Virus record (IMG/VR): IMGVR_UViG_3300046047_000272
Direction: 5' to 3' (one strand)
DNA: 64,000 nucleotides
DNA from: a virus
Taxonomy: Duplodnaviria > Heunggongvirae > Uroviricota > Caudoviricetes
Positions 21,001 to 24,000 of the stretch are shown here, in pieces. Made by a program: the position numbers. Position 1 is the first letter of the stretch, and each line of letters starts with the position of its first letter.

Positions 21001-24000
21001 CAGTCGGCAACACCGATACATGATACGCCTACAGATACTCCACAGGTCATTGAACCACCGTCTGAGGCTGATTCTCAATTGAAGATCAACCCCTCAAATC
21101 ATGTCAAGACATCTATGAAACATGCCGTGGATCCGCATCGTAGTCCTGATCCTCAACCAGGATTCAGGACGTCCGTCATCGTAGCCATCGCAGCCTCATG
21201 TGCAGGAATTCCAGCCATGGCCTTATTCTTCATTGTTGCCTTGATCGTCATTACAGGAAATATCCAAATTAGCGTTATCGTGACCTTCGGATTACTAGCC
21301 TTATTACCTGTTATTGGTCTTATCGCTGGTATCTGGTCATTGAAGGATAAACGTCATCGCATGGCTTCTATCATAGCTATTATGGTATCTATATGCTCAA
21401 TTGGAGCGTTCGTGTTCGCCGGAATGAATTCTGATAAGGCTATGCATGTTGTTGAGAGTGAGGCTATGACATCAATACAACAATCATTATCATCAGCTCT
21501 TAATGGACAATCATCGTCTAATAGTTCCTCAAGTGACTCTTCATCTTCATCTGACAATGCCTACGATCAGCAGGACACGTCAACAACATCACCTGATGAT
21601 CAGTCCATACTCAGTAATACTAATGGATCGAATACATCGAACAGTGGAGTAAACTCATGAACATCATGAATAATATACGAAGATTTAGATCGAGTAGTCT
21701 ATGGACAGGTCTTACGATTATCATTGGATCTGGTCTTGGGTTATTCGCGTCATTCATGTTATCCTTAGAGGCGTATTGGAAGGCCTTGAATCCTAATCAG
21801 GTGTTCTCCTGTGACGTTGACCAGAAGCTATCATGTTCAACGGTTGCAGCATCCTGGCAATCAACACTCCTACATTGGCCTGGCGGTGGAGCCATTCCTA
21901 ACGCGTTTATCGGCTTAGCCATGTTTAGCGTATTGCTGACTCTTGGTGTGATTATTGCTTGTGGTGTCAAATTACCAGTATGGGTGCAATGGGGGCTAAG
22001 ACTTGGTATGATTGTTGAGATCGTCTTCTCAACATGGCTGTTATGGCAATCGATGTTTGTGATTGGGGCTATGTGCCCATGGTGTCTGACTATGGATGTA
22101 GGATCAATCATCCTTATGATTGGTGTGCTCAGGGAATGGTCGTTATCACATGCTGAGCAACATCCTGGTATATGGAGATTCACGTCAAATCTTGAATCGT
22201 TACTGGTTAATGTCGTGATTCTTCTGGCTTTTGGACTCATCGTGACATTACATTATTTCTCATAAGATATGACGCTATGAGATGGGCAAATTGATCATAA
22301 GAAACACTGTGATCAGTTTGCCTTTATGATTGTCCACGTGTTATGATTATTACGTTAGTATTTATACGATAAGGAGATACATCATGGCGGAATCTTCGAA
22401 TATGGCTGCTGTCCAAGCCGCTCTTCCTAATAGGAGTGAGCAGCAGCAACGCGATGCGAAGACGAGAGACCTGACCGAGAAAGCACGAGCATCAGCGTCT
22501 CACCTGAGTAAGAATCAAATCAGCATTACTGAATCAATCATTGACGCCGGTGATCATGCGGACTCGAAGCAGCTTGAGATGGTTTATGAGATGCATGAGA
22601 AATATGCTGATTTTGGAGCGGATGAGCTAAAAGACCTCATTCCTACGATTGGCAAAGATGGCAATGGCCATGATATCAGCATGCGAGAGCTTGACGCTGG
22701 AAATGAATCGAGTAAGGATATTGCTAAGACGTTGAATAGGCTGTCAGCGTCCTTATCTGATATGGATAAGACTAATGCTTTTAACAGCACGATCAGTAAT
22801 ATACCAGTATTGAATAAGATTCGTAATCCTGTTAGAGCCTTCTTCAATAGGAGCAGGAAGGCTGGCTCGGTTATTGAGGATTGTGTTAAGAAGCTTACCC
22901 AATATGAGATCGCTCTGTGCTCGGACATCAGCAAATATAAGAATGACAGGCTGAGAGCAACGAAATGCTCAGAGGTTGCCGCTGAACAGGCAGCCATAGC
23001 TGATTCCATCATTAATCAATTGACGGAGGAATTATCATCTGATAGATTTGATAATTCACCAGAGTTGAAGGAAGCCATTCAGTCTGAGGTTTTGAATACC
23101 TTGGAGCGTCGTAAAATCGATTTGCTGTCTATCGCGACGAATCAGTCAGCATATGTCAGCAGTATCGACCTATTGGCTAAGAGTCATTACAGGATGCTCG
23201 AGCTCGTGAAATCAACGAAGAACACGGCCGTGATTAAATTCAATTCTGCGGTTGAGGTTGCTCAGGGTGTCTATGTTCAGGAAATTGCGCGTAAAGCGGT
23301 TAGAGCATCGAATAAAGCCAGCGCCGATCTTGATATGACCAATGCTGTCAATCTGAAGGATTCCGTTGAAAATATCAACAAGGAGACTATGAATCTTGAG
23401 GGTCATATCAATGATATGTCCGCGGCGGTCAATACCATTATTGAGGCTCAGGAAGCCTATCGTGACGCTGAGAAGAGAAACGCTGCGAACATGCATGAGG
23501 CTGCTCTCCGTAGTCAGCGTCAACTGAATCTCATGAACAAGAGAATCAAGGAAAGCCAGACGCTTGATGATACTCGTCGTGAAATGATGGATAGAATCAG
23601 CGAGCAGGCCGTAAAGAAGACTATCAAGGATGATCATCATGACGATGAGTAATAATGATGATTCACCCCTCCGTCCGCATCGTGGTGTCATTAATCAGAG
23701 TTGGTGGTCTGAACTCGATGAGAAGGCTCATCAGCATCCTGTAGGCGACCAATCTGATCATCCGTTTCATAGGACGCCATTTGACTATGCCATTGATGAT
23801 GCTCAGCGGAAGGTTGATGTTGGTCAGCATGCCATCTATCATCCAGAAACGTTAGACGATCTTATTGAGGTTCTGAATGAGATTAAATATCAACAGTTTA
23901 ACGGTCGTGGAGATATTCCGGCTAAGAGCTGTATCAGATTGCAGGGCGTGCAGACATCGTTAACCGGATTGAGCATTGATTACGGTCAATCTACAGATGG

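What the first reader, a model, noticed from the sequence alone, without database searches (positions are those of the whole stretch)
21657..22265. VKOR-family oxidoreductase co-resident with the sortase/pilin genes
A VKOR homolog (CPWC within a transmembrane helix plus a loop Cys pair) is encoded here. In Actinobacteria, VKOR-dependent oxidative folding is required for pilin and adhesin maturation, so the element appears to bring its own disulfide-forming enzyme for its Cys-containing exported proteins. It also points to an actinobacterial host.
Basis: partly seen in the sequence, partly recalled or inferred. Interest (0 to 1): 0.6.

Follow-up and report, generated by a model that had tools for sequence, protein, structure and literature searches.

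The report
VKOR disulfide enzyme in huge phage
The gene is a genuine vitamin-K-epoxide-reductase-type (VKOR) membrane enzyme carried by a roughly 0.5-megabase bacteriophage, but it belongs to a conserved phage membrane-gene block and is not tied to the phage's cysteine-free pilin.

Summary
ORF 21657-22265 (+, 202 aa) is a VKOR: Pfam PF07884 E=6e-30, an invariant loop pair C52/C60 and C140-P-W-C143 at the start of TM4. The predicted structure is confident (pLDDT 88.8), and its 14 best PDB matches are all VKOR structures.

- **Carrier:** the element is a huge phage. The identical protein is on record on a 491,046-bp contig.
- **Conservation:** VKOR is conserved at 50-69% identity in relatives on 350-545 kb contigs. 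It always sits in the block rIIA - rIIB - membrane protein - VKOR - TelA.
- **Origin:** the nearest cellular VKORs are from Bifidobacteriaceae (36-44% identity), so an actinobacterial origin or host is plausible.
- **Pilin link fails:** the pilin has no cysteine, and 116 of 120 homologues have 0-1. The sortase has only its catalytic Cys. Pilin and sortase lie 17 kb away, their closest relatives are cellular genes, and they are missing at the syntenic junction of a VKOR-carrying relative.
- **Real candidate clients:** the LPXTG-type adhesin (conserved C341/C354), a six-Cys membrane protein and a transglycosylase-like protein.

The most likely role is quinone-linked re-oxidation of a host MdbA/DsbA-type oxidoreductase during infection. 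I found no earlier description of a phage VKOR.

The parts
21657..22265 (+). VKOR-family membrane oxidoreductase, 202 aa. It has five predicted TM helices, the loop pair C52/C60 and C140-P-W-C143 at the outer end of TM4. There is no fused thioredoxin domain.
   Evidence: Pfam PF07884 E=6.4e-30. Cys, P81 and N82 invariant. AF2 pLDDT 88.8 with five long helices. Foldseek top 14 PDB hits are all VKOR. Profile hits to 6wv9/6wv3.
20704..21660 (+). Membrane protein of unknown function, 318 aa: acidic and apparently disordered N-terminus, a hydrophobic block, then a Ser-rich tail. Its stop overlaps the VKOR start (ATGA), so the two are probably translationally coupled. It is always the gene directly upstream of VKOR in relatives.
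   Evidence: overlap. (a 358-365 aa gene in the same position). (alignment shows no conserved Cys, so not a redox partner). No Pfam or PHROG hit.
19747..20613 (+). rIIB-like protein. The true start is probably downstream of the mechanical ORF start.
   Evidence: phrog_609 RIIB E=1.8e-31. 47% identical to the L005 gene that carries Pfam PF26926 Phage_T4_rIIB.
16720..19560 (+). rIIA-like protein, 946 aa, with an N-terminal HATPase_c_3 domain.
   Evidence: phrog_612 RIIA E=2.7e-45. PF13589 E=7.8e-10. Syntenic in L001, L005-7 and L008.
19602..19630 (+). Promoter-like site (TTGTCA-17-TATAAT, 11 of 12 matches) upstream of rIIB. It is a possible start of an rIIB-TM protein-VKOR transcription unit.
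   Evidence: This is a consensus match only, and the number of sites in the region is at chance level.
22284..22323 (+). Hairpin with a 16-bp stem, 19 nt after the VKOR stop, followed by a partly T-rich tail. It is a likely terminator closing the unit.
   Evidence: RNA fold gives -25.5 kcal/mol, z = -4.5, and 0 of 200 shuffles fold as well.
22384..23652 (+). TelA-like protein. It is always the gene downstream of VKOR in relatives.
   Evidence: PF05816 E=2.7e-20. Synteny. AAGGAG lies upstream of the ATG at 22384.
15055..15879 (-). Candidate client: a bitopic membrane protein with six Cys between its two TM segments, next to LemA (15941-16564).
   Evidence: Cys positions 89, 100, 120, 129, 178 and 183. 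All six are conserved in the 52%-identical L008 homologue. phrog_3886 E=3.3e-25.
25472..26443 (+). Candidate client: an exported, N-terminally anchored transglycosylase/phage-lysozyme-like protein with a conserved C277-x5-C283.
   Evidence: weak Phage_lysozyme2 and SLT hits, below cut-off. One search shows both Cys conserved in L008.
281..3451 (+). Candidate client: a 1056-aa wall-anchored adhesin (SdrD_B and SpaA domains, LPSSG anchor) with a single Cys pair, C341/C354.
   Evidence: The Cys pair is conserved in 32%-identical homologues on other large viral contigs.
39157..40587 (+). SpaH/EbpB-type major pilin. It contains no cysteine and therefore cannot be a disulfide client.
   Evidence: PF16569, PF17802 and PF00746. 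0 Cys. Homologues have 0-1 Cys in 116 of 120 cases.
40580..41443 (+). Class C sortase with only its catalytic Cys216. The closest non-self relatives are in cellular genomes.
   Evidence: PF04203 E=3.2e-25..

Best explanation
The gene encodes a functional, stand-alone five-TM VKOR of the actinobacterial type, carried by a huge (about 0.5 Mb) phage.

Shown:
- It is a VKOR family member, with all catalytic residues conserved.
- It is a conserved gene of a clade of huge phages and keeps a fixed place in the block rIIA - rIIB - membrane protein - VKOR - TelA.
- The phage copies form their own branch, separate from the cellular VKORs. This suggests an old capture rather than a recent passenger gene.

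Inferred:
- During infection the enzyme inserts into the host membrane with both Cys pairs facing outward.
- It takes electrons from a DsbA/MdbA-type thiol oxidase. This would most likely be the host's, because no such gene is encoded near the phage VKOR.
- It passes those electrons to a membrane quinone.
- This would keep exoplasmic disulfide formation running while the phage takes over the cell.

Likely beneficiaries are phage-encoded exported proteins with conserved Cys pairs: the six-Cys membrane protein next to LemA, the transglycosylase-like protein and the LPXTG-type adhesin. The pilin is not among them.
For: Family membership:
- Pfam E=6.4e-30.
- C52, C60, C140, C143 and P81/N82 are invariant. 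N82 aligns with the Asn of the conserved 'PNS' motif, and the Cys pairs align with those of solved VKORs.
- The AF2 model has pLDDT 88.8, and its PDB matches are exclusively VKOR structures, from vertebrates and Synechococcus.

Topology:
- 6-7 Lys/Arg lie on the N-terminus, loop 2 and loop 4 side. Only 2 lie in the 43-residue loop that carries C52/C60.

Phage carrier and conservation:
- Identical VKOR and sortase proteins are both on record on a 491,046-bp contig.
- Homologues at 50-69% identity sit on contigs of 349,703, 419,707, 489,114 and 545,287 bp.
- The synteny is identical in L001, L005-7, L008 and L174.
- rIIA and rIIB are confirmed by PHROGs.
- In a neighbour-joining tree the phage sequences form one clade apart from the cellular ones.

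Candidate clients:
- Conserved Cys pairs are shown.

No co-encoded partner:
- No other exported CxxC protein occurs in the window.
- No thioredoxin or DSBA Pfam hit occurs within 10 kb of VKOR in relatives.

Precedent:
- The VKOR to MdbA to menaquinone pathway is established in A. oris (PMC5478893).
Against: - No activity, expression or partner data exist.
- Only 64 kb of a roughly 491-kb genome was seen, so a phage-encoded DsbA/MdbA elsewhere cannot be excluded.
- The presumed host lineage already has its own VKOR, so the benefit of a second copy is inferred, not shown.
- Only a few exported phage proteins in the window contain paired Cys.
- The constant neighbours (rIIA/rIIB, TelA) point to membrane physiology in general and do not specifically indicate oxidative folding.
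- The host is not identified directly. The window has 45% GC, against about 59-61% in the Bifidobacterium loci examined.
- From my own knowledge, not tested here: bifidobacteria are generally thought not to make menaquinone. That leaves the electron acceptor open.
Confidence: 0.6

Rival explanations
1. One reading: the element carries VKOR specifically to fold its own pilus proteins (pilin and adhesin) that its sortase assembles.
For: - VKOR/MdbA is required for pilus assembly in A. oris.
- A pilin, a class C sortase and an LPXTG-type adhesin lie in the same 64-kb window.
- The adhesin has a conserved Cys pair.
Against: - The pilin has 0 Cys, and its homologues are almost all Cys-free.
- The genes are 17-18 kb from VKOR and in different transcription units.
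- VKOR is conserved with rII/TelA in relatives, and L008 shows no pilin or sortase at the syntenic junction.
- The sortase scan of IMG/VR does not return the VKOR-carrying contig, and the VKOR scan does not return the sortase contigs.
- The nearest non-self sortases are cellular. This implies a separate, lineage-specific capture.
Confidence: 0.1
2. VKOR acts mainly on membrane or quinone redox state as part of an rII/TelA membrane-control module. It could, for example, tune membrane energisation, lysis timing or protection against abortive infection. Providing disulfides to clients would then be secondary.
For: - The order rIIA-rIIB-TM protein-VKOR-TelA is invariant across phages whose VKORs are only about 50% identical.
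- VKOR overlaps the upstream membrane gene and is followed by a strong hairpin. This is consistent with co-transcription with rIIB.
- The surrounding 25 kb is rich in membrane genes: LemA, flotillin/Band_7 and several TM proteins.
- Giant-virus VKORs were recently proposed to serve a lipid-remodelling redox module, not protein folding (PMC13486548).
Against: - The loop Cys pair, which in known VKORs receives electrons from a protein partner, is strictly conserved.
- No known quinone-dependent partner enzyme is nearby: no gamma-carboxylase-like gene and no desaturase.
- The functions of rII and TelA are themselves poorly defined, so gene order gives little mechanistic guidance.
Confidence: 0.22
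3. The gene is a recently captured host gene without a dedicated role, or the region is cellular or integrative-element DNA and not phage.
For: - Cellular Bifidobacteriaceae carry homologues.
- The window also holds other cell-like genes: the sortase, the pilin and a TnpB-like gene.
Against: - Phage VKORs are 50-69% identical to each other but at most 44% identical to any cellular one, and they form a separate clade.
- The catalytic residues are invariant.
- Synteny with rIIA/rIIB is conserved.
- Relatives are on 350-545 kb contigs, one of them an IMG/VR viral genome.
- The window carries NrdE, a clamp loader, IF3, an RNA ligase and 7 tRNAs, as is typical of huge phages.
Confidence: 0.05

Closest known systems
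Actinobacterial stand-alone VKOR (Actinomyces oris VKOR; Mycobacterium tuberculosis VKOR Rv2968c)
   Same: - Both are Pfam VKOR proteins with a loop CX7C and a CXXC in TM4.
- Both have five TM helices and no fused thioredoxin domain.
- The closest cellular sequences to the phage protein are actinobacterial.
- The expected partner is an MdbA/DsbA-type oxidase and the expected acceptor is menaquinone.
   Different: - The phage copy is encoded by a huge phage, not a chromosome.
- It is at most 44% identical to any cellular copy and lies on a separate branch.
- Its genomic neighbours are rIIA/rIIB and TelA. In Bifidobacterium boum the neighbours include a diaminopimelate-epimerase-like ORF (my reading of the translation) and no thioredoxin-like gene.
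- Its activity is untested.
Giant-virus (Mimiviridae) VKORs, PNAS 2026 (PMC13486548)
   Same: Both are virus-encoded VKORs with conserved CXXC and CXnC motifs. In both cases the enzyme is proposed to be an auxiliary redox gene.
   Different: - Those are eukaryote-infecting viruses whose VKORs are eukaryote-like. Their genes sit next to a gamma-carboxylase-like epoxidase fused to a desaturase.
- Here the virus is a bacteriophage, the VKOR is actinobacterium-like, and no such neighbour exists.
- That paper lists six viral VKORs, five from named Mimiviridae members and one from a viral metagenome, and the words 'phage' and 'bacteriophage' do not occur in its text.
Synechococcus VKOR-thioredoxin fusion (PDB 3KP9/4NV2) and vertebrate VKORC1 (PDB 6WV3)
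   Same: The four-helix-bundle core and the positions of the Cys pairs are shared. Foldseek gives E=1e-5 to 2e-2, probability 1.00 and TM-score up to 0.66. The sequence profile also hits these structures.
   Different: - There is no C-terminal thioredoxin domain, which the Synechococcus protein has.
- The Tyr of the vertebrate 'TYA' warfarin/quinone motif aligns with Asp147 in the phage protein.
- Sequence identity is only 19-23%.
DsbB/BdbC quinone-dependent disulfide generators
   Same: The overall job is the same: a membrane enzyme that re-oxidises a DsbA-like protein through a quinone (established knowledge).
   Different: The fold and family are unrelated. Pfam reported only VKOR for this protein.

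Membership tests
VKOR (Pfam PF07884) | Sequence matches the family profile above the curated threshold | tested here: met
   104.5 bits against a cut-off of 27.5, E=6.4e-30, covering profile positions 2-131 of 134. The NCBIfam equivalog models for specific VKOR subfamilies fall below their cut-offs. It is therefore a family member but not one of those named equivalogs.
VKOR (Pfam PF07884) | Four catalytic cysteines: a loop pair and a CXXC at the start of TM4 | tested here: met
   C52-x7-C60 and C140-P-W-C143 are invariant in 27 sequences. They align with the Cys pairs of solved VKORs.
VKOR (Pfam PF07884) | Four-helix-bundle membrane fold with a structured extracytoplasmic loop between TM1 and TM2 | tested here: met
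   The AF2 model has pLDDT 88.8 and pTM 0.82. Helices span 14-44, 82-101, 108-136 and 141-164, with a fifth at 180-201, and the loop contains a short helix and strands. The top 14 Foldseek PDB hits are all VKOR.
VKOR (Pfam PF07884) | Conserved quinone-site Asn (vertebrate N80 equivalent) and loop Ser | tested here: met
   P81-N82 is invariant and aligns with the 'PNS' motif of the pufferfish VKOR-like protein. S66-W67 aligns with 'SRW'. Equating this position with human N80 and S57 rests on my own knowledge of the human numbering.
VKOR (Pfam PF07884) | Catalytic Cys face the extracytoplasmic side | tested here: inconclusive
   The positive-inside count favours an N-in, Cys-out topology: 6-7 K/R on the N-terminus, loop 2 and loop 4 side against 2 in loop 1. 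This is a prediction only.
VKOR (Pfam PF07884) | Quinone-dependent re-oxidation of a thioredoxin-fold partner | not testable with these tools
   This needs complementation of E. coli dsbB or an actinobacterial vkor mutant, or an in vitro assay.
Actinobacterial MdbA/VKOR pilus-folding pathway (A. oris type) | The pilin substrates contain disulfide-forming Cys pairs | tested here: not met
   The pilin at 39157-40587 has 0 Cys. Of its 120 best homologues, 116 have 0-1 Cys in the mature part. Only the adhesin has a pair, C341/C354.
Actinobacterial MdbA/VKOR pilus-folding pathway (A. oris type) | An MdbA/DsbA-type partner is available | tested here: inconclusive
   No exported CxxC ORF other than VKOR occurs in the 64-kb window. 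No thioredoxin or DSBA Pfam hit occurs within 10 kb of VKOR in relatives. The rest of the roughly 491-kb genome and the host were not seen.
Actinobacterial MdbA/VKOR pilus-folding pathway (A. oris type) | VKOR and pilus genes co-occur or are linked in related elements | tested here: not met
   The genes are 17 kb apart. L008 has VKOR but no pilin or sortase at the syntenic junction. The IMG/VR sortase and VKOR scans return non-overlapping sets of contigs. The scans are pattern-based, so absence is not proven.
Giant-virus vitamin-K redox module (VKOR + gamma-carboxylase-like epoxidase-desaturase) | VKOR is adjacent to a gamma-carboxylase-like or desaturase gene | tested here: not met
   The neighbours are rIIB, a TM protein without a Pfam hit, and TelA, both in the window and in relatives.

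The most novel reading that the evidence does not exclude
This may be the first described bacteriophage-encoded VKOR. It appears to be an anciently captured, conserved gene of a clade of 0.35-0.55 Mb phages that probably infect Bifidobacteriaceae. It may be co-transcribed with rIIB and an unknown membrane protein. On this reading its main job would be to link the infected cell's quinone and thiol redox state to rII/TelA-type control of membrane integrity or lysis timing, and not to act as generic folding help.
Probability: 0.25. Interest if true: 0.65.

Novelty: new member of a known kind. Interest (0 to 1): 0.45.

Why it matters
- **Extends virus-encoded VKORs to phages.** VKORs were reported in 2026 for eukaryotic giant viruses. 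If the phage enzyme is active, disulfide or quinone redox control becomes another host process that very large phages bring with them.
- **Offers a testable handle on an uncultured phage clade.** The clade is probably bifidobacterial. A single small gene can be tested by complementing an E. coli dsbB mutant.
- **Corrects an appealing story.** The pilus genes in this phage are a separate, Cys-poor acquisition, so VKOR cannot be read as pilus support. This shows that co-residence within a window is weak evidence of functional coupling.

Tried and rejected
- **Nucleotide searches.** Megablast of 24 kb of the window against PLSDB plasmids and INPHARED phages found nothing.
- **VKOR against INPHARED.** tblastn found only three unannotated, 'UNVERIFIED' human-faecal contigs at 32-45% identity. 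One has 73.5% GC and no other similarity to the window, so these were not informative.
- **Contig look-ups.** The look-up of encoding contigs found no record for P0001, P0002 or P0024. The 491-kb and 350-kb contigs could therefore not be inspected beyond the window.
- **Upstream membrane protein as redox partner.** Rejected: it has no conserved Cys and no thioredoxin-like region.
- **Thioredoxin, DsbA or MdbA gene in the window.** None was found.
- **AAA ATPase (41837-42907) as a synteny anchor.** It returned only a 37%-identical paralogue about 310 kb from VKOR in the IMG/VR relative, which was not useful.
- **Metagenome scan with the VKOR profile.** It was swamped by chromosomal Bifidobacterium-like VKORs from human gut and added only one phage-like locus, L174.
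- **Naming the bacterium behind the nearest cellular sortase.** The listing of cluster members returned no names.
- **Literature.** Searches for phage VKOR, huge phages of Bifidobacterium and phage sortase/pilin found no relevant prior description.
- **PHROGs.** It has no family matching the VKOR.
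Full report

Yes. The ORF at 21657-22265 (+) encodes 202 aa. Its ATG overlaps the stop of the upstream ORF (ATGA) and is preceded by GGAG.

It matches Pfam VKOR (PF07884) at E=6.4e-30, 104.5 bits against a gathering score of 27.5, over nearly the whole profile. Two NCBIfam VKOR equivalog models match but fall below their cut-offs. It is therefore a family member without belonging to those named subfamilies.

The protein has five Cys: C52, C60, C102, C140 and C143. In an alignment with 26 homologues, C52, C60, C140, P141, C143, P81 and N82 are invariant.

A profile of that alignment finds the solved vertebrate VKOR and VKOR-like chains (6wv9 E=2.7e-9; 6wv3 E=1.4e-5). The loop pair, the 'PN' motif and the CXXC all align in register.

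The AlphaFold2 model is confident (mean pLDDT 88.8, pTM 0.82). It shows long helices at 14-44, 82-101, 108-136, 141-164 and 180-201, with a structured loop between the first two. Its 14 best Foldseek matches in the PDB are all VKOR structures, from pufferfish, human and Synechococcus, with probability 1.00 and query TM-scores up to 0.66. Nothing else reaches E<1.

Charge counts favour an N-in topology with both Cys pairs outside. This is a prediction only.

There is no fused thioredoxin domain. The architecture is the stand-alone five-TM type known from actinobacteria.

**2. What carries it?**

The window is phage DNA. It encodes:
- rIIA-like and rIIB-like proteins (phrog_612 E=2.7e-45; phrog_609 E=1.8e-31);
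- NrdE, an RNA ligase/kinase, a split topoisomerase I, a clamp-loader subunit and IF3;
- a CHAP lysin, a flotillin-like protein and a TM2 protein;
- seven tRNAs.

Proteins identical to the VKOR and to the sortase are both on record on a contig of 491,046 bp.

VKOR homologues at 50-69% identity lie on contigs of 349,703, 489,114 and 545,287 bp. Another lies on a 419,707-bp IMG/VR viral genome.

No nucleotide-level relative exists among catalogued plasmids or phages.

**3. Genomic setting of VKOR**

In every relative whose flanks could be read (L001-L008, L174), the order is rIIA-like (HATPase_c_3), rIIB, a 310-365 aa membrane protein, VKOR and TelA. In L001 and L005-L007 a topoisomerase I gene follows a few genes further on. 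The window has the same order.

The upstream membrane protein has no conserved Cys and no recognisable domain. It is therefore not a thioredoxin-like partner.

A near-consensus promoter-like site precedes rIIB (19602-19630). A 16-bp-stem hairpin (22284-22323; -25.5 kcal/mol, z = -4.5) follows VKOR. This suggests an rIIB - membrane protein - VKOR transcription unit. It remains an inference, because consensus sites in the region are no more frequent than in shuffled sequence.

In a neighbour-joining tree of 50 sequences, the phage and metagenomic VKORs form one clade, separate from all cellular actinobacterial ones (no support values were computed). Together with the invariant catalytic residues, this argues for an old capture kept under selection.

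**4. Origin and host**

A scan of one genome per species returned 591 confirmed relatives. The best 80 are overwhelmingly Bifidobacteriaceae: Bifidobacterium spp., Ca. Ancillula, Aeriscardovia and Pseudoscardovia, at 36-44% identity. Other Actinomycetota follow, such as Cellulomonas, Isoptericola and Propionibacteriales, plus a few Saccharibacteria.

The best named sortase hit is a Bifidobacterium class C sortase at 52% identity. The closest non-self sortase with readable context (55%) sits in a 59%-GC contig beside housekeeping genes.

GC content in the phage clade runs from 45% (the window) through 50% (L008, L174) to 58-62% (L005, L001).

An actinobacterial host, probably from Bifidobacteriaceae, is therefore plausible but not demonstrated. 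One point cuts the other way: the only named pilin homologues are from Subdoligranulum, a Firmicute.

**5. The proposed link to the pilus genes**

The window does contain three pilus-related genes:
- a SpaH/EbpB-type pilin (39157-40587);
- a class C sortase (40580-41443);
- a 1056-aa anchored adhesin (281-3451).

The pilin has no cysteine and the sortase has only its catalytic Cys. Among the 120 best pilin homologues, 79 have no Cys in the mature part, 37 have one and 4 have two.

The adhesin has one Cys pair, C341/C354. The pair is conserved in 32%-identical homologues on other large viral contigs.

Genetic linkage is absent:
- The pilus genes lie 17-18 kb from VKOR.
- In the 60%-identical relative (L008), the gene that neighbours the pilin in the window instead sits next to the flotillin gene, with no pilin or sortase between them.
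- A profile-guided scan of IMG/VR found 36 viral contigs with class C sortases, and the VKOR-carrying contig is not among them.
- The VKOR scan recovered only that one contig.

These scans rely on short conserved peptide patterns, so absence is suggestive, not proven.

**6. Who could the clients be?**

Three exported or membrane proteins in the window have paired, conserved Cys:
- the bitopic protein 15055-15879 (-), next to LemA, with six Cys all conserved in L008 and a match to phrog_3886;
- the transglycosylase-like protein 25472-26443, with C277-x5-C283 conserved;
- the adhesin.

No thioredoxin-like exported CxxC protein is encoded in the window. None is encoded within 10 kb of VKOR in relatives.

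**7. Most likely mechanism**

By analogy with A. oris and M. tuberculosis, VKOR re-oxidises MdbA/DsbA and passes electrons to menaquinone (PMC5478893). The phage enzyme most likely does the same with the host's oxidase during infection. This would maintain or boost exoplasmic disulfide formation for phage-encoded envelope proteins.

The family assignment and the conservation are shown. The partner, the acceptor, the direction of benefit and the timing are inferred.

The main rival is a role in membrane or quinone redox control together with rII and TelA. The invariant gene order suggests it. The recent proposal that giant-virus VKORs serve lipid remodelling and not protein folding points the same way (PMC13486548). 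No gamma-carboxylase-like or desaturase gene is nearby here.

**8. Novelty**

The 2026 giant-virus paper counted six viral VKORs in NCBI, five from named Mimiviridae members and one from a viral metagenome, and the words 'phage' and 'bacteriophage' do not occur in its text. PHROGs has no family that matches this protein. Full-text searches found no description of a phage VKOR.

The protein itself is an ordinary VKOR. What is new is the carrier and the conserved phage context. I therefore rate it a new member of a known kind, of moderate interest.

Noticed in passing
window 39157-40587 and 281-3451: The pilin's sorting signal reads LGKTG where its homologues have LP[TV]TGG. The adhesin's reads LPSSG. 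Both depart from canonical LPXTG, so recognition by the adjacent class C sortase is uncertain.
   Followed up: partly
L089-L124 (IMG/VR contigs of 100-420 kb): About 36 large viral contigs carry class C sortases. Many have the same local arrangement: flotillin-like gene, pilin, sortase, adhesin-like gene. Sortase-assembled pilus clusters thus recur in big phages, and I found no description of this in the literature searched.
   Followed up: partly
window 27376-28803 and 28800-29888: Topoisomerase I is split into two ORFs overlapping by ATGA, inside the Topoisom_bac domain (profile positions about 290/299). In relatives L001 and L005 it is one gene of 910-915 aa. This could be a genuine split, a frameshift or an assembly error.
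   Followed up: partly
window 3834-5294: A TnpB/Cas12f-like ORF (PF07282 E=1.6e-16) lies in a patch of higher GC (about 51% against about 45%) just downstream of the adhesin gene. This suggests an inserted IS-type element.
   Followed up: no
window 15055-16564 (-): LemA (PF04011; phrog_1383) is paired with a six-Cys bitopic membrane protein (phrog_3886). The pair is conserved in L008 and apparently recurs in phages.
   Followed up: partly
window 52295-53137: The CHAP-domain lysin has an N-terminal hydrophobic segment containing two Cys (C38, C45) as well as the catalytic-region Cys174. Thiol-based control of activation is conceivable but was not examined.
   Followed up: no
window 61736-63931: There is an array of seven tRNA genes: Pro-CGG, Pro-TGG, Asn, Lys-CTT, Lys-TTT, His and Leu-TAA. 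IF3 (58623-59219) and an HD-domain protein (59274-60260) lie just upstream.
   Followed up: no
window versus L008, L174, L005, L001: Related huge-phage loci span a wide GC range around the same syntenic block: 45%, 50%, 50%, 58% and 62%. The clade may have tracked hosts of very different base composition.
   Followed up: partly
window 21657-21755: The public (JGI) gene call for the identical VKOR starts at Met34 (169 aa) and so omits the first TM helix. Homologues of about 202 aa and the RBS support the longer ORF.
   Followed up: yes
window 30581-38916 (-) versus L008 16137-19835 (+): The flotillin-containing block lies in inverted orientation compared with the relative. In the window the pilin-sortase pair sits at one edge of this block, which fits insertion at a rearrangement breakpoint.
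   Followed up: partly
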